Assembly: GCA_035403825.1 (NCBI GenBank)
Contig: DAONFX010000001.1
Location: 22,043 to 86,042, forward strand
Origin: Anaerolineaceae bacterium
Lineage (GTDB): Bacteria; Chloroflexota; Anaerolineae; Anaerolineales; Anaerolineaceae
DNA length: 64,000 nt
Reading direction: 5' to 3'
Position numbers and translations under genes: made by a program. Below are positions 415 to 55,568 of the stretch, in pieces. How positions within the stretch are numbered: position 1 is the first letter of the stretch; each line of letters begins with the position of its first letter. The notes below the pieces were generated by a model, which saw only the letters and a list, made by a program, of their open reading frames with translations, was not told the origin of the DNA and ran no database searches.

Positions 415-1152
415 TCATTCGTATTGCTTAAGTACGGCTGGAATTGCGGCGCGGATGAGAGAAAGCGTTTTGCGGAAGGCAGCAAGCTTTTCGGCATCCG
501 TGCCTTGAACGACTGCCGGATCCTCAAAGCCTACATGGACGCGTTTTTCTTTCCCCAGCCAGAGCGGGCAGGTCTCGCGAGCGTTATCGCAGACTGTAAT
601 GACCAGGTCAAATTCCTGTCCTTTGAATCCCTCAACCGATTTGGGCTCGCCCTGATGGAAAATTCCGGCCTCTTCCAATACCTGGAGAGTGAAAGGATTG
701 ACTTCCAGCGCAGGCTTGGTCCCCGCGCTAAAGGCGACCCATTGATCCCAGCAGTCGTTGTTCACGACCGCTTCTGCCATTTGACTGCGGGCGGAATTGC
801 CGGTGCACAGGATCAGGACTCTTTTGCGCTGCTGAAGTTCATCTTCTTCAGGGACGGACTGAGGTCCGAGGGCTTTTTGGTCGGCATCCCCGCTGACGAG
901 GATTTCATTTTCGAATTCACCGGCTTCCATCTCCCGCAGGAGCTCGAGCGCGTTCTGTTCATCCTGCGCGCGGACCAACACCTCGGCTACACCGAGATCC
1001 CCGATGGTGAGTCCGTAAATTTTCCCGGCGGCTTCCTGGCTCACGCTGGCGGGGATGTCATGGGCTGCCAGGAAGCCCCTGATAATTTCACCGTCAACCA
1101 AGCCCTTGGCGCGGTACACTACGACCAAATCTGATAAACCATGTTCTGTCAT
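415..1152 (-). CDS. arsC: Arsenate reductase / LMW-PTP fold protein (thioredoxin-coupled ArsC type) with an extra N-terminal domain of about 100 aa, possibly DUF2007-like
   Basis: The C-terminal half has CTGNSARSQMAE and VCDNARETCP, the Cys10/Cys82/Cys89 pattern. Start moved from 1164 to ATG 1152, which overlaps the ndk stop as ATGA. Confidence 0.75.
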   Translation of the reverse strand: MTEHGLSDLVVVYRAKGLVDGEIIRGFLAAHDIPASVSQEAAGKIYGLTIGDLGVAEVLVRAQDEQNALELLREMEAGEFENEILVSGDADQKALGPQSVPEEDELQQRKRVLILCTGNSARSQMAEAVVNNDCWDQWVAFSAGTKPALEVNPFTLQVLEEAGIFHQGEPKSVEGFKGQEFDLVITVCDNARETCPLWLGKEKRVHVGFEDPAVVQGTDAEKLAAFRKTLSLIRAAIPAVLKQYE

Positions 1153-1598
1153 TCGTAAATCCATTTCTCAAGTTCGCGCGACCAGCGGACGAGCTCTTCC
1201 GGTCGGAACCACAGGGCAATCTCCGCCTCCGCGTTTTCGGGGGAATCTGAGGCGTGGGTAATATTATAACGGGCCTGGAGCGCGTAGTCGTGGCGGATGG
1301 AACCGGGCGCGGCTTCCGTTCCGCGCGTCTTGCCCATGGTCTGGCGAATGGCCGCAATCGCGTCCGGGCCTTCCCAGACCATCGCCATGACCGGCGAAGA
1401 GGTGATGAAGGTAATCAACGCGTCGTAAAAAGGCTTGCCCGCGTGAACGGCGTAATGCGCTTCGGCCAACTCCCGGTTCACCTGTAAAAAGCGGGCGGCC
1501 GTCAGACGCAAACCGCGGTCTTCCAGCGCGGTGATGACTTTGCCTATCAGACCGCGCTGCACGCCGTCCGGTTTAACCAATACCAGCGATCGTTCCAT
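1149..1598 (-). CDS. ndk: Nucleoside diphosphate kinase
   Basis: MERSLVLVKPDGVQRGLIG..., active-site NITHASDS, 149 aa. Confidence 0.95.
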   Translation of the reverse strand: MERSLVLVKPDGVQRGLIGKVITALEDRGLRLTAARFLQVNRELAEAHYAVHAGKPFYDALITFITSSPVMAMVWEGPDAIAAIRQTMGKTRGTEAAPGSIRHDYALQARYNITHASDSPENAEAEIALWFRPEELVRWSRELEKWIYE

Positions 1599-14745: not shown

Positions 14746-16200
14746 TTAAACTTTCGGCGCTCGCAGGATTAATTGCTTGGCAGCGCGGACTTCGTCACAG
14801 CGCCCGACGGGGGAATTGTGCGGGGCTTCGTGCAGCAATTCCGGGTTTTCGCGCGCTTCCGCGGCAATCTTCAGCATGGCGTCCGCGAAGGCGTCCAGCG
14901 TTTCGAGCGACTCGGTCTCAGTGGGCTCAATCATGAGCGCTTCGTGCACAATCAGCGGGAAGTAGTTTGTGGGCGGATGGAAGTTGTAGTCGATAAGGCG
15001 CTTGGCAATATCTATCGCGCGGATGCCGGGGGCGTCCGCCCAGTGGCCTTCCACCACAAATTCGTGCATGCAGCGGCGGTCGTATGCCAGATGGTAGGCG
15101 TCTTTCACCTTCGCAAGCAAATAATTGGCGTTCAGCACCGATTTTTCGGCGATGTTCCGCAGGCCGTTCCCGCCGTGCATAGCAATGTAGGTGTAAGCGC
15201 GGACCAACATGCCGAAATGCCCGTTGAAGGACTTAACGCGCCCGATGGATTTCGCGGGGTGCGCGTAGCCATATAAAGGCGGGAGTTCCTCGCTCCCGGG
15301 TTCCACTATCGCAACTACCGGGTCGGGCAGGTATTCTACCAACCGCTGGCAGACCGCGACCGGACCCGAGCCCGGGCCGCCGCCGCCGTGCGGGGTGGAG
15401 AAGGTTTTGTGCAGGTTCAGATGCATGATGTCGAATCCCAAATCCCCCGGGCGGACAATGCCGAGCAGGGCGTTCAGGTTTGCGCCGTCACCGTAGACCA
15501 GCCCGCCGGCAGCGTGCACCATCTCGATGACCTCGGTCACATTCTCATCAAAAAGTCCGAGGGTATTCGGGTTCGTGAGCATCAAGCCGGCCAGGCGTTC
15601 ATCGCATAAGCCTTTGAGGGCTTCCAGATCCACATTTCCGCGCGCGTCTGAAGGCAGGTTCACCACCTCAAAACCGCTCATCGCGGAGGTGGCAGGGTTG
15701 GTGCCGTGGGCTGAATCCGGAATGAGGATGCGCGTGCGCTGACTGTCACCGCGGTCGGCGTGGTACTTTTGGATGATCAGCGCTCCGGTCAGTTCGCCGT
15801 GCGCGCCGGCGGCGGGCTGCAGGGAGACGCCGGCAAAACCGACGATTTCCTTCAGCCATTCCTGCAAGGTGTACATCAGGTAGAGGTTGCCCTGCACCGT
15901 GTCTTCCGGCTGCAGCGGGTGAGTGAGCGCGAAGCCGGGCAAGCGTGAGGTAACTTCGTTAATCTTGGGGTTGTACTTCATCGTGCAGGAACCCAGCGGG
16001 TAAAACCCCAGGTCAATCGCGTAATTCTTCTGGGAGATGCGCGTAAAGTGGCGTACAGTGTCGATTTCCGCCAGCTCCGGAAGAGGGAGTTCTTTGCGGC
16101 GGAAGGCAGCCGGCAGTTCCACCTCCGGCACGTCCGAAGCCGGAAAGCGCACGCCCTGGCGGCCTGCAGAGGACAATTCAAAGATGGTAGGCTCAGTCAT
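14746..16200 (-). CDS. gcvPB: Glycine dehydrogenase (decarboxylating) subunit 2
   Basis: 484 aa. PLP-lysine context NLHKTFSTPHGGGGPG. Confidence 0.95.
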   Translation of the reverse strand: MTEPTIFELSSAGRQGVRFPASDVPEVELPAAFRRKELPLPELAEIDTVRHFTRISQKNYAIDLGFYPLGSCTMKYNPKINEVTSRLPGFALTHPLQPEDTVQGNLYLMYTLQEWLKEIVGFAGVSLQPAAGAHGELTGALIIQKYHADRGDSQRTRILIPDSAHGTNPATSAMSGFEVVNLPSDARGNVDLEALKGLCDERLAGLMLTNPNTLGLFDENVTEVIEMVHAAGGLVYGDGANLNALLGIVRPGDLGFDIMHLNLHKTFSTPHGGGGPGSGPVAVCQRLVEYLPDPVVAIVEPGSEELPPLYGYAHPAKSIGRVKSFNGHFGMLVRAYTYIAMHGGNGLRNIAEKSVLNANYLLAKVKDAYHLAYDRRCMHEFVVEGHWADAPGIRAIDIAKRLIDYNFHPPTNYFPLIVHEALMIEPTETESLETLDAFADAMLKIAAEARENPELLHEAPHNSPVGRCDEVRAAKQLILRAPKV

Positions 16201-17548
16201 GAGTCACCTCGATCAGCGCGTCGTGCAGCAGGTCAATATCTTCCTTGCCTATTTTTTCCGTGACGGCTATCAGGAGGCAGCCTTCCAGCTCGGGATAATC
16301 GCTGCCGAGGTCGTAACCGCCGAGGATGTCATAGGCGCGCAAGTCTTCGAGCAGGTGCTTCACCGGCTGCGGGCTGCGGATGACAAATTCATGGAAGAAG
16401 GGTTGGCTGGAAAACTCCTGCGTATAGCCCTGGATGGAACTGATTTGTTTTGCGGCGTAATGCGCTTTTTGGAAGCACAGGTTGCTCACGGCTTCAAAGC
16501 CCTGCTTCCCGAGCAGGCTCAGGTAAATGGTGGAAGCCAGCGCCATTAATCCCTGGTTTGTGCAGATATTCGAAGAGGCTTTCTCGCGGCGAATGTGCTG
16601 CTCGCGGGCTGTGAGCGTGAGCACGTACGCCAGCCTGCCGGCGCTGTCAACAGTTTCACCGACAAGCCGGCCGGAAATCTTGCGCAGCAGGTCGTTCGTA
16701 ACCGCGAAGATACCCAGATACGGCCCGCCGTAGGAGAGCGGAATACCGAGCGGCTGACCTTCGCCAAAGACAATATCCGCGCCGATTTCACCTGGAGGGG
16801 TGAGCACACCCAACGCGGTGGGGTTGACGGCGACCGCGACCAGCGCGCCGGCGCTGTGCGCGGCTGCGATGAGCGGCTTGTAATCTATCACGCGCCCGAA
16901 GAAATCGGGGTACTGCACCATCACCAGGGCGGTGTTGGGGTCAATCCGGGAGATGAGTTTCTCCATCGAGGCGTCGATGCCGGTTTCAGGATCGTCCCCC
17001 TGGATGCTGATCTCCTGACTGCCGCGCATATAGGTGCGCACAACTTCGCGGTACTGCGGGTTAACCGCGCGCGATATCAGGAATTTGGTGCGCTTGCCTT
17101 TGAAGTGATGGTAAGCCAGGATCACTGCTTCCGCCGCGGCAGTAGCGCCGTCGTAATGCGAAGCGTTGGCGACGTCCATGCCGGTCAGCTCGCAAATCAG
17201 ACTTTGGTACTCAAAAATTGCCTGCAGTGTGCCCTGGGAGATTTCGGGTTGGTACGGCGTGTAGGCGGTGTAAAACTCCCCGCGCCGCAGGAGCATATCC
17301 ACCGCCGCAGGCACATAATGGTCGTAGGCGCCCGCGCCGATGAAGTTCAGGAAGGTTTTGGTGCTGCCGTTCGCGTCGGCGATGCCTTCCAGCTCGTCGG
17401 CAGCTTCCATTTCGGTCAGGGAGGCGGGAAGCTTGAGCTCTGGGAAACGGAACTTTTCCGGGATCTCATTAAAGAGGTCTTCAACTTTTCCGATTCCGAT
17501 AGTCTTAAGCATCACCTCCACATCTTTTTGGGTGTGGGGCGTGAACAT
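16193..17548 (-). CDS. gcvPA: Glycine dehydrogenase (decarboxylating) subunit 1
   Basis: 451 aa. TAYTPYQPEISQGTLQ motif. Overlaps the gcvPB start. Confidence 0.95.
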   Translation of the reverse strand: MFTPHTQKDVEVMLKTIGIGKVEDLFNEIPEKFRFPELKLPASLTEMEAADELEGIADANGSTKTFLNFIGAGAYDHYVPAAVDMLLRRGEFYTAYTPYQPEISQGTLQAIFEYQSLICELTGMDVANASHYDGATAAAEAVILAYHHFKGKRTKFLISRAVNPQYREVVRTYMRGSQEISIQGDDPETGIDASMEKLISRIDPNTALVMVQYPDFFGRVIDYKPLIAAAHSAGALVAVAVNPTALGVLTPPGEIGADIVFGEGQPLGIPLSYGGPYLGIFAVTNDLLRKISGRLVGETVDSAGRLAYVLTLTAREQHIRREKASSNICTNQGLMALASTIYLSLLGKQGFEAVSNLCFQKAHYAAKQISSIQGYTQEFSSQPFFHEFVIRSPQPVKHLLEDLRAYDILGGYDLGSDYPELEGCLLIAVTEKIGKEDIDLLHDALIEVTHD

Positions 17549-17553
17549 AGGCT

Positions 17554-17937
17554 TTACCCTACCCGGTAGGCCCGATAGGCTTCGGCGCTGAGCAGCTTTT
17601 CCAGCTCAGCAGGATCGTCGACCTTAATCCGGAGCAGCCAGCCTTTCCCGTATGGGTCGTCGTTGAGGATTTCCACCTCATCGAGGATGGCTTCATTGAT
17701 CTCGGTCACCACGCCGCTCACTGGCAGCATGACCTCCGAGCTGGCTTTGGCGGAATCCACCTGACCGAGCTGCCCGCCGGCCTTCACATGATCTCCAACC
17801 TCAACCGAGAACTCGAAATAGACGATATCGCCGAGCGCATCCTGGGCGTAATCCGAAATGCCGACGGTAGCAATGCCGTTTTCAAGCTTCACCCATTCAT
17901 CTGTCTGAGCATATTTTAGTTCTTGTGGGAAGTTCAT
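17554..17937 (-). CDS. gcvH: Glycine cleavage system H protein
   Basis: 127 aa. Lipoyl-lysine context VDSAKASSEV. Confidence 0.95.
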   Translation of the reverse strand: MNFPQELKYAQTDEWVKLENGIATVGISDYAQDALGDIVYFEFSVEVGDHVKAGGQLGQVDSAKASSEVMLPVSGVVTEINEAILDEVEILNDDPYGKGWLLRIKVDDPAELEKLLSAEAYRAYRVG

Positions 17938-17944
17938 CGTTTCT

Positions 17945-18110
17945 CCTTATCAAATAGTTGCAGAGGCACAGGTTTCTTGTGCCTCTGTCGTTAACTGTTG
18001 ACTGTTACCTTCAGAGGATTAATTGGCAGGGTCTGTTTACCTGAGAGTTTCGCCCGTTTTTGCGGGTTTGCCCCTTCGGTGCCTGAAGCAGGGCTCTTCC
18101 CTGCCAATGT
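17945..18110 (-). promoter_or_regulatory. Glycine riboswitch (single aptamer seen) plus expression-platform hairpin, leader of gcvH-PA-PB
   Basis: - **Aptamer (minus strand):** TTGGCAGGGAAGAGCCCTGCTTCAGGCACCGAAGGGGCAAACCCGCAAAAACGGGCGAAACTCTCAGGTAAACAGACCCTGCCAA.
- **P1 stem:** 9 bp, pairing 18023-18031 with 18099-18107. The aptamer carries the hallmark CACCGAAGGGGCAA and ACUCUCAGG.
- **Expression platform:** the downstream hairpin CAGAGGCACA-N10-TGTGCCTCTG can compete with CCTCTG just 3' of the aptamer. Confidence 0.8.
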
Positions 18111-18119
18111 TCTGATTTA

Positions 18120-53538: not shown

Positions 53539-54051
53539 TCAGGATTCGGTAATGATGACTGTGTTTAGTGTAACCGCCGGCGAATCAATCAGGCTCGGGT
53601 CGCGCGGGGAAATAGCAAAGAGCACATCCAGCCCCTTAACAACCTGACCGAAGACAGCATGCTTACCGTCCAGCCAGGGTGTGGGGACGTGGGTAATGAA
53701 GAACTGCGAGCCGTTGGTGTTCGGGCCGGCATTGGCCATGGAGAGCACGCCGGGCTTGTCGTGGCGCAGTTTCGGGTCAAATTCGTCGCGGAATTTGTAG
53801 CCGGGGCCGCCGCGGCCGGTGCCGGTCGGATCCCCGCCTTGGGCCATGAAGTCCGCGATAACGCGGTGGAAGATGGTGCCGTCATAAAAGCCCTGCCGGG
53901 CGAGAAAAACGAAGTTATTGACGGTGCGGGGCACGTTCTTCGCGTACAGGTCAATGACAATATCGCCTTTGCTGGTGCGCAGGGTAGCCTGGTAATTTTT
54001 GGTGGGGTCCAACTGCATTGTGGGCTCTGACTGCCATTGTAAGGAACTCAT
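53539..54051 (-). CDS. ppiB: Cyclophilin-type peptidyl-prolyl cis-trans isomerase
   Basis: [33 protein letters not shown]. Confidence 0.9.
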
Positions 54052-54239
54052 ACTGCCTCCGAGGTGTTTTCGTCTATTGTAGCATCAAACCCGGAGGGAA
54101 CCCGCACTGCATGCGTCGTCCTGCGCGCGTTTACAGAGGACAGCACCCGAAACTAAGCAGCACTGCGATTATTTCTACGCGCTGCTGGTTAGCGAATGGA
54201 GGTCTTGGAGTAGAAATCGGCGGCCGACTGGGAGGAAGG

Positions 54240-54716
54240 TCAAGCGCTTTCGTTGTTCAGGATATCCAGCAGAGAAAGGATTTCTTCGTTGGCGGGAATA
54301 TCGGTCATGTCATGCCCATAGTGGATGTAGCGCACCAGTCCGGATTTATCCACGATAATCTGCCCGGGCATACGCCCCAGCTTGAAGATGTTGACCTGCT
54401 GTCCCATGAGTTTGAGAACGGTGTGGGTAGGGTCGGGCAAACCGATAAAGGGCAGCTTTTCTTTGGTGAAGTACGCAGTGAAGGCTTCGGGGCTTTCAGG
54501 GCCAATCACCATAATTTGCGCGCCGGCAGCAAGGAAATTTTCGTAGTCACGGCGCAACTGCGCCATATGCCGTTGGCAGAATGGTCAGGTGAATCCGCGG
54601 TTTAGAATGAGGATGACATGATGGACGCCTTTGAAATCCGACAGCCTGACCGGATTGCCGTGGACATCCACAAGACTGAAATCCGGAGAAGGGAGATTAA
54701 GGGTTACGAGAGTCAT
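54240..54716 (-). CDS. Peroxiredoxin-like (AhpC/TSA, PRX_like2-type) thiol-disulfide oxidoreductase with in-frame TGA at the first redox position. This is a candidate selenoprotein (UxxC); the alternative is a nonsense-disrupted pseudogene.
   Basis: - **Upstream translation (own, from ATG 54716):** MTLVTLNLPSPDFSLVDVHGNPVRLSDFKGVHHVILILNRGFT-TGA-PFCQRH.
- **Continuity:** this continues in frame into track ORF 54240-54566 (MAQLRRDYENF...).
- **TGA position:** 54585-54587 in plus-strand coordinates.
- **Family fit:** both halves match one thioredoxin-fold family. Confidence 0.6.
54549..54566 (-). promoter_or_regulatory. Candidate bacterial SECIS-like hairpin downstream of the in-frame UGA
   Basis: The mRNA reads AUGGCGC-AGUU-GCGCCGU, a 7-bp stem including one G-U pair. 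The apical loop contains GU and lies 29-32 nt from the U of UGA. Confidence 0.35.
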
Positions 54717-54740
54717 CGATGACCTTTCAGAAACCGTGCT

Positions 54741-55568
54741 CTACCCTTTGACGGCGCCGCCGAGCATGCCGCGAATGAAGAAGCGCTGGAAGAGAATATA
54801 CACAATCACGGTCGGCAGCGCGACAATCAGGGCGCCGGCTGCCAACAGGGGAATATTAGCGGTATATTTCCCCTGGAAGAAGGCCAGCCCGACCGGCAGC
54901 GTACGCAGAGTTTCATCCTGGATCAGCACGAGCGCGAGCAGGAATTCATTCCAGGTCCACATGAAGATTAGCACGACCAGGGTGGTTACAGATGGTTTGG
55001 CCAGCGGCCAGAGCACCCGCCAGAGCGTTTGCCAGCGGCTGCAGCCGTCCATGGCGGCCGCGTCCACCAAATCACGCGGGGCGTTTTCGAAAAAGGAAGT
55101 CATCCAGAGCGTGCCGAAAGAGACGCTGAGCCCGATTTGGGGGAGTATCAGCGCCCAATAGGAGTCGCGCAGACCTAAAAGATCCAGGAAATGATAAAGG
55201 GGAATGATGACTGCCTCGAAAGGTACCATGTATCCGAGCAGGATCAGCGGAAAAAGCCAGCGTTTCCCGGGCAGCGGCAGCAAACCAAACGCGTAACCCG
55301 TCAGCACCGACAGAAAAACACTGGCGGCGACCACAGCAATGGAAACGATGACACTGTTCTTGAAGAAGATGTTGAAACGCCCTGTGAACCAGGCTTGTCT
55401 GAAGTTATCCAAATTCCAGGTCTGCGGCAGGCTGAAGGGACCCTGAATAAGCTGGGTGTCGGTCTTGAACGCGCCGAGGAACAGCCCGGAAATCGGCAGC
55501 AGCACCATGAACGAGAAGAAGACCAGCAGCAGGTAGCGGGGAACCAGATTTTTCACGCGGCCGTTCAT
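54741..55568 (-). CDS. Carbohydrate ABC transporter permease (MalG-like)
   Basis: 275 aa, 6 TM helices, binding-protein-dependent transport inner-membrane component pattern (DAAAMDGCSRWQTLWRVLWPL). Confidence 0.9.
   Translation of the reverse strand: MNGRVKNLVPRYLLLVFFSFMVLLPISGLFLGAFKTDTQLIQGPFSLPQTWNLDNFRQAWFTGRFNIFFKNSVIVSIAVVAASVFLSVLTGYAFGLLPLPGKRWLFPLILLGYMVPFEAVIIPLYHFLDLLGLRDSYWALILPQIGLSVSFGTLWMTSFFENAPRDLVDAAAMDGCSRWQTLWRVLWPLAKPSVTTLVVLIFMWTWNEFLLALVLIQDETLRTLPVGLAFFQGKYTANIPLLAAGALIVALPTVIVYILFQRFFIRGMLGGAVKG

What the first reader, a model, noticed from the sequence alone, without database searches (positions are those of the whole stretch)
54240..54716. Peroxiredoxin-like gene with TGA in place of the first Cys of a CxxC motif: candidate selenoprotein missed by ORF calling
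- **What the track shows.** It has only a 108-aa ORF (54240-54566) starting at MAQLRRDY, which would be a thioredoxin-fold protein lacking its active site.
- **Upstream reading.** Translating upstream in the same frame gives 43 more codons from an ATG at 54716: MTLVTLNLPSPDFSLVDVHGNPVRLSDFKGVHHVILILNRGFT. This is the typical N-terminus of AhpC/TSA or PRX_like2 proteins.
- **Recoding site.** Next comes TGA (54585-54587), then PFCQRH. The motif therefore reads T-U-P-F-C, with the stop exactly where homologues have the peroxidatic or redox Cys.
- **Known precedent.** Sec/Cys pairs at this position are known for Prx-like and thioredoxin-like bacterial selenoproteins.
- **SECIS candidate.** The hairpin AUGGCGC-AGUU-GCGCCGU starts 19 nt after the UGA codon. 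Its GU-containing apical loop lies about 29-32 nt from the U of UGA, within the range reported for bacterial SECIS elements.
- **Missing machinery.** No selA, selB, selC or selD gene is in this window, so the trait cannot be confirmed here.
- **Alternative.** A recent nonsense mutation cannot be excluded.
Basis: partly seen in the sequence, partly recalled or inferred. Interest (0 to 1): 0.7.

Follow-up and report, generated by a model that had tools for sequence, protein, structure and literature searches.

The report
Mis-annotated Prx-like selenoprotein gene (UxxC)
This is very probably a real 158-residue redox enzyme gene in an Anaerolineaceae bacterium in which an in-frame UGA encodes selenocysteine, helped by a highly conserved RNA hairpin just downstream; public annotation cuts the protein in half, but the type of selenoprotein is already known.

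Summary
On the minus strand an ATG at 54716 opens a 158-codon frame interrupted only by TGA at 54585-54587, giving RGFT-U-PFC in an AhpC/TSA-fold protein.

It is not a nonsense mutation. The TGA sits at the identical codon in all 80 species-representative genomes recovered, almost all Anaerolineae, with proteins only 56-86% identical. The 36 upstream codons have no stops in 84 sequences and show normal coding periodicity. Rare homologues carry TGC/TGT (Cys) there.

Eighteen nucleotides after the UGA lies the hairpin UGGCGC-AGUU-GCGYC. Its codons are frozen at synonymous sites (Ala GCG 83/83, Gln CAG 85/85, Leu TTG 85/85), whereas other conserved codons are saturated. Two compensated variants exist, and the freeze relaxes in Cys-forms (Fisher p = 3e-6). 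This behaves as a bacterial SECIS.

In register, U44 corresponds to the N-terminal Cys of a thioredoxin-like CxxC, which is the Thr of the Prx TxxC motif. It is not the peroxidatic Cys. This matches the published "Prx-like thiol:disulfide oxidoreductase" selenoproteins, of which this is a distant, shorter relative.

selA, selB, selD and tRNA-Sec were not found in about 84 kb. The trait is supported only by literature on cultured Anaerolineae. Verdict: a new member of a known kind, of moderate interest.

The parts
54240..54716 (-). Complete selenoprotein gene: 158 codons plus stop. It encodes an AhpC/TSA-fold 'Prx-like' UxxC protein.
   Evidence: Orthologues with the same architecture occur in 80 genomes. 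NCBI annotates only the 108-aa C-terminal part, as HPS31935.1 / HNW94859.1.
54714..54716 (-). ATG start codon.
   Evidence: A Met at the equivalent position precedes the conserved block ..V.LN.PAPDF in the orthologues. The AG-rich stretch GAAAGG at 54723-54728 is a possible Shine-Dalgarno site; this is read from the sequence and is inference only.
54585..54587 (-). In-frame UGA, read as selenocysteine (U44), the first residue of the UxxC redox motif.
   Evidence: TGA is at this codon in 89 of 91 loci and TGC in the other two. Further TGY Cys-forms were found.
54576..54578 (-). Cys47 codon (TGC), the partner of U44. It aligns with the peroxidatic Cys of BCP/PrxQ and with the second Cys of the ResA CxxC. 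Its third base also pairs in the mini-stem.
   Evidence: alignments. TGC in 84 of 85 sequences; the one TGT is compensated.
54568..54578 (-). Conserved 3-bp mini-stem UGC-N5-GCA between the UGA and the main hairpin.
   Evidence: RNAalifold. Pair counts: UA 85/85, GC 85/85, CG 81/85 plus one compensated UA. Its role is unknown.
54549..54566 (-). SECIS-like hairpin AUGGCGC-AGUU-GCGCCGU. The consensus is a 6-bp stem UGGCGC/GCGYCR with a tetraloop AGUU that contains a G.
   Evidence: Synonymous sites are frozen; there are G:C to G:U changes in 20 sequences and one U:A compensation (L068). The core is kept in 82 of 84 Sec-forms against 1 of 6 Cys-forms.
54372..54374 (-). Arg115 codon within the invariant G-R-M-P block. 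It aligns with the conserved active-site Arg of peroxiredoxins.
   Evidence: Invariant columns G114, R115 and P117. It aligns to the Arg of 3drn.

Best explanation
The locus is one gene, 54716 to 54240 on the minus strand. It encodes a 158-residue cytoplasmic thioredoxin-fold oxidoreductase built on a peroxiredoxin (BCP-like) scaffold. The UGA at codon 44 is decoded as selenocysteine. By analogy with other bacteria, a SelB-GTP-Sec-tRNA(Sec) complex would be recruited by the mRNA hairpin UGGCGC-AGUU-GCGYC, which begins 18 nt after the UGA and lies inside the coding sequence for H-M-A-Q-L-R. The product carries a U44-P-F-C47 redox centre at the N-terminal cap of a helix. Sec most likely acts as the attacking nucleophile and forms a selenenylsulfide with C47, reducing a disulfide, sulfenic acid or peroxide substrate, and the centre is presumably re-reduced by a thioredoxin-type system. 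What is shown: the gene structure, conservation of the UGA, translation of the upstream part, RNA-level selection on the hairpin, the Sec/Cys pairing, and the fold and motif register. What is inferred: actual Sec insertion, SelB binding, the substrate and the reductant.
For: (1) TGA is at the identical codon in 80 of 80 species-representative genomes and 89 of 91 loci, with proteins 56-86% identical. (2) There are no stops in the 36 upstream codons of 84 distinct sequences. Substitution rates at codon positions 1/2/3 are 0.34/0.22/0.62 upstream and 0.27/0.18/0.60 downstream, so both halves are translated under purifying selection. (3) Cys codons sit at the same site in natural homologues: P0017/L009, P0044/L093, L184, L185, L174 and L202. 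(4) Synonymous sites are frozen in the hairpin: Ala GCG 83/83, Gln CAG 85/85, Leu TTG 85/85 (other Leu columns have TTG in 8-22 of 85), Arg CGC 64 / CGT 20 / CGA 1, Cys TGC 84/85. Other conserved 4-6-fold codons have 1.6-2.4 bits of codon entropy, and third-position variability drops to 0.25 in this zone. (5) 98.7% of cells pair. G:C becomes G:U in 20 sequences, and there are two fully compensated pairs; no shuffle out of 500 reached the observed values. (6) The core GCGCAGTTGCG is kept in 82 of 84 Sec-forms but only 1 of 6 Cys-forms, Fisher p = 2.8e-6, and two Cys-forms lose the hairpin altogether. (7) TGA ends about half of the ordinary ORFs in the window, including the next gene, so TGA is a normal stop in this genome. 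(8) Pfam AhpC-TSA matches at 1.2e-20. The AlphaFold model of the Cys-form has pLDDT 86.9 and puts residue 44 immediately before helix 45-56. The best folds are Bcp1 3drn (TM 0.84-0.86), then ResA. (9) The published family 'Prx-like thiol:disulfide oxidoreductase' (PF00578, UxxC) has the motif FYRGAWUPYC, compared with LNRGFTUPFC here, and the two align in register at E = 2e-12. (10) Cultured Anaerolineae (A. thermophila UNI-1, Caldilinea aerophila) are listed as SelD+ SelA+ SelB+ with 4 and 3 selenoproteins (PMC5029168 Tables S1 and S2).
Against: No selA, selB, selD or tRNA-Sec was found in the window, in 10 kb beyond each end of it, or in about 1.3 Mb of flanks from the 80 related genomes. 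That is expected by chance, but it leaves the machinery of this genome untested. No Rfam SECIS family matches. Taken alone, the hairpin is not unusually stable (z = -1.4). Covariation is thin because the element hardly varies: only 2 double changes. Part of the conservation could reflect the invariant M-A-Q-L-R peptide. Two Cys-forms (L185, L093) still form a hairpin of different sequence at the same place, so a hairpin there is not strictly tied to UGA. There is no conserved operon partner to indicate the substrate. No experimental evidence of selenium incorporation exists.
Confidence: 0.9

Rival explanations
1. This is a pseudogene: a recent nonsense mutation (TGY or TGG to TGA) inactivated a Cys-containing redoxin gene.
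For: Public annotation shows only a 108-aa fragment lacking the active site. No Sec machinery is visible nearby.
Against: The same TGA occurs in 80 of 80 genomes at 56-86% protein identity. There are no further disruptions, and the upstream half shows coding periodicity. An RNA element is conserved downstream.
Confidence: 0.01
2. UGA is read through or reassigned without selenium, either by a genome-wide code change (code 4 or 25, UGA = Trp or Gly) or by near-cognate suppression that inserts Trp or Cys at this leaky UGA-C context.
For: 31 of the 120 best database clusters show W at this site. The base after the UGA is always C; UGA-C is known as a weak stop context (own knowledge).
Against: The W is a gene-calling artefact: the DNA reads TGA in both sequences checked. 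TGA terminates about half of the ordinary ORFs in the window. The only natural substitute seen repeatedly is Cys, the chemical analogue of Sec, at a redox motif. The frozen hairpin has no role under simple suppression and relaxes in Cys-forms.
Confidence: 0.04
3. These are two separate products: a 43-aa peptide ending at the UGA, and a 108-aa protein re-initiated at the conserved ATG (Met51) six codons later. The conserved sequence would then serve translational coupling or initiation, not Sec insertion.
For: ATG is present at codon 51 in 83 of 85 sequences, and gene callers pick it as a start.
Against: The two parts are always in the same frame with exactly six codons between them. No Shine-Dalgarno-like sequence precedes the ATG. 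Two Sec-forms have CTG there and still keep the U and G that pair in the stem. The 108-aa part would lack both redox residues and the first three strands of the fold. Cys-forms are single continuous ORFs.
Confidence: 0.03

Closest known systems
Prx-like thiol:disulfide oxidoreductase selenoproteins (Kryukov and Gladyshev 2004; exemplar WP_010940744.1 of Geobacter sulfurreducens; 'Prx-like 1' in the GOS survey)
   Same: Both match PF00578. Both have a thioredoxin-like UxxC motif in place of the Prx TxxU, with an almost identical local motif (R-G-x-x-U-P-[FY]-C) that aligns in register. In both, the SECIS lies inside the coding sequence directly after the UGA.
   Different: Identity is only 21% (pairwise E = 2e-12). 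The window protein is 158 aa against 235 aa, lacks the ~50-residue N-terminal helical extension and an internal ~20-residue insertion, and has an invariant HYGH..DIP C-terminal block of its own. The clade is essentially confined to Anaerolineae, and Sec is nearly fixed in it (at least 111 of the 120 best clusters), whereas Cys forms dominate in the published family counts.
BCP/PrxQ peroxiredoxins (e.g. Sulfolobus Bcp1, PDB 3drn)
   Same: They are the closest solved fold (TM 0.84-0.86) and the closest PDB sequence (1.9e-8). C47 aligns with the peroxidatic Cys and R115 with the catalytic Arg.
   Different: The defining P-x-x-x-T-x-x-C motif is absent: the Pro is replaced and the Thr position is occupied by Sec. 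NCBIfam peroxidase models score far below their cutoffs (36.5 against 140; 32.4 against 260).
ResA/TlpA-type CxxC thiol-disulfide oxidoreductases (PDB 1st9, 3c71)
   Same: The CxxC register is identical to UxxC (G-x-x-C-P-x-C). They are the second-best fold group (TM 0.73-0.84).
   Different: ResA is membrane-anchored and extracytoplasmic. This protein starts directly with the first beta strand and has no hydrophobic leader (read from the sequence). NCBIfam ResA scores 37.8 against a cutoff of 170.
SelL / NCBIfam NF040769 'SelL-related redox protein'
   Same: It is the best NCBIfam hit (6.2e-23), over the N-terminal two thirds including the redox motif. It is also a Prx-like family with Sec in a CxxC-type motif.
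   Different: The score of 81.3 is below the curated cutoff of 120, and only profile positions 3-97 of 173 align. SelL has UxxU (PMC2398784); this protein has UxxC.
Sec-containing peroxiredoxin PrxU (Eubacterium acidaminophilum; TxxU)
   Same: It is an AhpC/TSA-fold bacterial selenoprotein.
   Different: In PrxU the Sec is the peroxidatic residue (TxxU). Here Sec sits three residues earlier, and the peroxidatic position holds Cys.

Membership tests
Bacterial selenoprotein gene (UGA = Sec) | An in-frame UGA inside an ORF that is conserved and translated on both sides | tested here: met
   TGA at the same codon in 89 of 91 loci; no other stops; coding periodicity on both sides.
Bacterial selenoprotein gene (UGA = Sec) | Homologues carry Cys at the aligned position | tested here: met
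   TGC or TGT in L009/L010, L093/L094, L184, L185, L174 and L202; 4 of the 120 best clusters have C.
Bacterial selenoprotein gene (UGA = Sec) | [quoted passage not shown] | tested here: met
   A 6-7 bp stem plus an AGUU loop begins 18 nt after the UGA. It is conserved beyond the protein constraint, shows compensatory changes and relaxes in Cys-forms. No Rfam SECIS model matched.
Bacterial selenoprotein gene (UGA = Sec) | The genome encodes selA, selB, selD and tRNA-Sec | not testable with these tools
   None was found in the 64-kb window, in 10 kb beyond each end, or in the flanks of 80 relatives. The rest of the 388-kb contig and the MAG could not be read. Literature lists A. thermophila UNI-1 and Caldilinea aerophila as SelD+ SelA+ SelB+.
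Bacterial selenoprotein gene (UGA = Sec) | Selenium is actually incorporated at the UGA | not testable with these tools
   This requires 75Se labelling or mass spectrometry.
Prx-like thiol:disulfide oxidoreductase selenoprotein family | AhpC/TSA (PF00578) domain | tested here: met
   74.1 bits against a cutoff of 26.
Prx-like thiol:disulfide oxidoreductase selenoprotein family | [quoted passage not shown] | tested here: met
   U44-P-F-C47. U falls at the Thr position of TxxC and C at the peroxidatic position. The definition is taken from PMC1088965.
Prx-like thiol:disulfide oxidoreductase selenoprotein family | Orthology with the exemplar WP_010940744.1 (same subfamily and architecture) | tested here: inconclusive
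   homologous over the whole domain (E = 2e-12) with the motif in register, but only 21% identical, 77 residues shorter and without the N-terminal extension. It is probably a separate subfamily.
Peroxiredoxin proper (BCP/PrxQ, PrxU) | The P-x-x-x-T-x-x-C/U active-site motif, with the peroxidatic residue preceded by Thr at position -3 | tested here: not met
   alignments: the Pro and Thr are not conserved, and Sec occupies the Thr position. NCBIfam peroxidase equivalogs score far below their cutoffs.
NCBIfam NF040769 SelL-related redox protein | Score at or above the curated cutoff of 120 bits | tested here: not met
   81.3 bits. The Cys-forms score 72.8 and 76.0 bits.

The most novel reading that the evidence does not exclude
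The Anaerolineae proteins form a separate, not yet catalogued subfamily of Prx-like selenoproteins (158 aa, motif N-R-G-F-x-U-P-F-C, invariant HYGH..DIP). In it selenocysteine is essentially fixed across a whole bacterial class, and its compact SECIS core (GGCGC-AGUU-GCGYC) is invariant at the nucleotide level. That would make it a ready-made definition of the SelB recognition element of Chloroflexota and a marker gene for the Sec trait in that lineage.
Probability: 0.35. Interest if true: 0.45.

Novelty: new member of a known kind. Interest (0 to 1): 0.33.

Why it matters
The practical consequence is for annotation. At least 111 of the 120 best database clusters of this family are wrong, either truncated to about 108 aa without the active site or carrying a false Trp from code-4 gene calling. 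NCBI records for this very locus (HPS31935.1, HNW94859.1) hold only the inactive-looking fragment, and no NCBIfam model reaches its cutoff to rescue it.

Biologically, the gene indicates that Anaerolineae, which are abundant in anaerobic digesters, sediments and activated sludge, depend on selenium for at least one widely conserved redox enzyme. It also offers an unusually clean, invariant SECIS for studying SelB recognition outside Proteobacteria and Firmicutes. It does not reveal a new mechanism.

Tried and rejected
- **Rfam.** The scan of the whole window at gathering thresholds, and of 54200-54800 at E up to 10, gave no SECIS hit, only chance lncRNA matches.
- **tRNA-Sec.** ARAGORN on the window and 83 loci found none.
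- **sel gene probes.** The best E-value was 0.05, and the positive control worked.
- **Extending the contig.** Reading 10 kb past each window end showed housekeeping genes only.
- **A second selenoprotein in the window.** 153 TGA-joined ORF pairs were examined. After removing those covered by longer ORFs, only ordinary genes with nonsense tails remained.
- **Conserved gene neighbourhood.** No neighbour is shared by more than 17 of 81 loci, and the ABC-transporter/PPIase/HAL synteny holds only for close relatives. Context therefore gives no clue to function.
- **Remaining protein searches.** I considered using them to find Anaerolineae SelA or SelB. I rejected this because only the 120 best hits are listed, and these would be relatives of the proteobacterial probe.
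- **Literature.** A per-organism list of selenoprotein families for A. thermophila was not available. BSepDB supplements are not held.
- **Pseudogene, code reassignment and split-gene readings.** All rejected, for the reasons given under the rival explanations.

Full report
**1. The observation**

On the minus strand an ATG at 54716 opens a frame that runs to the TGA stop at 54242-54240 and is interrupted only by TGA at 54587-54585. The mechanical ORF list contains just the two halves, 43 aa and 108 aa. It also contains a longer spurious antisense ORF, 54018-54605 on the plus strand. With the TGA read as Cys, the 158-aa product matches Pfam AhpC-TSA (1.2e-20, residues 10-131) and Redoxin (4.5e-15), so the domain spans the TGA. 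Taken alone it is unremarkable: -14.3 kcal/mol in context, z = -1.4.

**2. It is not a nonsense mutation**

A homologue search returned 4161 proteins in two odd classes. One class is about 155 aa long and mostly has Trp at the critical position. The other is about 105-118 aa long and starts at MAQLR, just after the TGA.

Reading the DNA showed that the Trp is TGA in both sequences checked (L007, L008). Gene callers evidently chose genetic code 4 on these short contigs. Among the 120 best clusters, 80 are truncated, 31 carry this false W, 4 have Cys, and one each has R or L.

A scan of one genome per species returned 542 confirmed relatives, and the best 80 loci were kept. Almost all are Anaerolineae and other Chloroflexota, including the complete genome of Leptolinea sp. 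HRD-7. All 80 have TGA at exactly this codon, and across all loci held the count is 89 of 91, with TGC in the other two.

The 36 codons upstream contain no stop in 84 distinct sequences. Their substitution pattern by codon position (0.34/0.22/0.62) is the same as downstream (0.27/0.18/0.60), so both halves are translated and under purifying selection. TGA ends about half of the ordinary ORFs in the window, so the code is not reassigned.

**3. The RNA element**

Downstream of the UGA, the segment ATGGCGCAGTTGCG(C/T)C is almost invariant at the nucleotide level, although the proteins are only 56-86% identical.

| Codon (relative to UGA) | Residue | Codons seen |
|---|---|---|
| +3 | Cys | TGC 84/85 |
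| +8 | Ala | GCG 83/83 |
| +9 | Gln | CAG 85/85 |
| +10 | Leu | TTG 85/85 (8-22 of 85 at other Leu columns) |
| +11 | Arg | CGC 64, CGT 20, CGA 1 |

Other conserved 4-6-fold degenerate codons show 1.6-2.4 bits of codon entropy. Third-position variability in this zone is 0.25, against about 0.6 elsewhere.

RNAalifold predicts a 6-bp stem UGGCGC/GCGYCR with an AGUU loop, plus a 3-bp mini-stem UGC-N5-GCA upstream of it. Of all pair cells, 98.7% form standard pairs. One stem pair alternates between G:C (63 sequences) and G:U (20) and is U:A in L068, where both sides changed. The single TGT variant in the mini-stem is also compensated. None of 500 shuffles reached the observed values, and structures slid by one to three columns pair at only 18-63%.

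As a control I collected true Cys-forms with a DNA pattern scan of metagenome contigs. Six distinct Cys-form orthologues at 42-58% identity are now held. Only one of the six keeps the GCGCAGTTGCG core, against 82 of 84 Sec-forms (Fisher p = 2.8e-6). Two have lost the hairpin entirely (-1.4 and -2.1 kcal/mol), while two keep a hairpin of different sequence, possibly a fossil of the original.

[quoted passage not shown] The loop starts 25 nt after the UGA. From memory this lies within the range used by bSECISearch; I did not verify that number. No Rfam SECIS model matched.

**4. What the protein is**

In PDB alignments to BCP/PrxQ (3drn, 2ywn), C47 falls on the peroxidatic Cys, U44 on the Thr of the Prx T-x-x-C motif, and R115 on the catalytic Arg. 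In alignments to ResA, U44 and C47 fall on the two cysteines of the CxxC.

An AlphaFold model of the natural Cys-form P0017 (pLDDT 86.9) puts residue 44 immediately before helix 45-56, the usual thioredoxin-fold CxxC geometry. The closest solved folds are Bcp1 (TM 0.84-0.86), followed by ResA.

[quoted passage not shown] That family appears as Prx-like 1 (pfam00578, UxxC) in the GOS survey and as 'Prx-like thiol:disulfide oxidoreductase', predicted with high confidence, in a 2026 review.

The exemplar WP_010940744.1 has the motif FYRGAWUPYC, against LNRGFTUPFC here. The two proteins align in register at E = 2e-12 but are only 21% identical, and the window protein lacks the exemplar's N-terminal extension and an internal insertion. 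No NCBIfam model reaches its cutoff; the best is SelL-related at 81 against 120. That probably explains why the annotation pipeline truncates the gene.

**5. Source and context**

Exact look-ups place the window on a 387,773-bp contig of an Anaerolineaceae MAG (JGI 3300040744), with a near-identical NCBI MAG, GCA_047291895.1. NCBI proteins HPS31933 to HPS31936 are histidine ammonia-lyase, a PPIase, the 108-aa 'redoxin domain-containing protein' and an ABC permease.

The sugar ABC transporter upstream and the PPIase, HAL and radical-SAM genes downstream are syntenic only in close relatives. Across 81 loci no neighbour recurs in more than 17, so the gene looks like a stand-alone unit and its context does not suggest a substrate.

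**6. What remains open**

The Sec machinery of this genome is unverified. No tRNA-Sec, selA, selB or selD was found in the window, in 10 kb beyond each end, or in the flanks of the 80 relatives. With about 84 kb of a multi-megabase genome read, this absence carries no weight either way.

The only positive evidence is from the literature. Peng et al. 2016 (PMC5029168, Tables S1 and S2) list Anaerolinea thermophila UNI-1 and Caldilinea aerophila as SelD+ SelA+ SelB+ with 4 and 3 selenoproteins. A MAG labelled A. thermophila carries the TGA form of this gene (L066). No second selenoprotein gene is evident in the window.

**7. Verdict**

The gene is very probably a selenoprotein (confidence about 0.9 for UGA = Sec with the hairpin acting as SECIS). 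Its biochemical role as a selenenylsulfide-forming thiol:disulfide oxidoreductase or peroxidase is inferred from the motif and fold only.

The kind is known. What may be new is a distant, compact Anaerolineae-wide subfamily in which Sec is nearly fixed and the SECIS is invariant, together with systematic errors in public databases. I rate the interest as moderate to low.

Noticed in passing
window 18019-18111 (-): A glycine riboswitch aptamer (RF00504, 58 bits, E = 2e-9) lies upstream of a run of minus-strand ORFs (17554-17937, 16193-17548, 14746-16200). These look like a glycine-cleavage operon by position only. A single aptamer was reported, not the common tandem pair.
   Followed up: no
database proteins P0001-P0120; loci L007 455-457, L008 471-473: Public protein collections hold this family mostly in two wrong forms: truncations of about 108 aa, and full-length proteins with Trp at the Sec site. 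In both sequences checked the DNA has TGA at the Trp position, so gene callers applied genetic code 4 to short metagenomic contigs.
   Followed up: partly
window 54018-54605 (+): A 195-aa antisense ORF overlaps the real gene and is longer than either of its halves. Length-based ORF picking would choose it over the true gene.
   Followed up: yes
L058, L068, L078 (match regions): Bins labelled Actinomycetota, Myxococcales and Desulfobacteraceae carry Anaerolineae-type copies with the same TGA and hairpin. This could be binning contamination or horizontal transfer. L068 is also the sequence with the compensated U:A stem pair.
   Followed up: no
L185 and L093/L094, about 20-40 nt after the Cys codon: Two Cys-form orthologues keep a stable hairpin of different sequence (GGCGC-GCUU-GCGCC; UCGCGC-GCCU-GCGCGA) at the SECIS position. 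It could be a fossil SECIS left after Sec-to-Cys conversion, or a sign that the hairpin has a second role.
   Followed up: partly
P0034 and P0036 (database proteins): Two homologues show Arg and Leu at the Sec position. Both residues have codons one base away from TGA (CGA, TTA), so these could be sequencing errors or real inactivating or variant alleles. Their DNA was not inspected.
   Followed up: no
L097-L200 (e.g. L155, L162, L194): A separate CxxC family, about 30% identical, with the motif VVVWFSRGFTCPFCRVYTDG is abundant in soil metagenomes. It shares the RGF-x-CPFC motif but no Sec forms were seen among these hits. The DNA pattern searched required a Cys codon at that site, so Sec forms could not have appeared.
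   Followed up: no
L082 and 16 other loci, immediately next to the gene: A small membrane protein of about 115 aa is the most frequent neighbour (17 of 81 loci, usually directly adjacent on the same strand). It is absent from the window, and its family was not identified.
   Followed up: no
window 415-1164 (-): A protein combines a DUF2007 hit (weak) with a low-molecular-weight phosphatase / ArsC-type LMWPc domain. It sits next to nucleoside diphosphate kinase and a sigma-70 factor gene.
   Followed up: no
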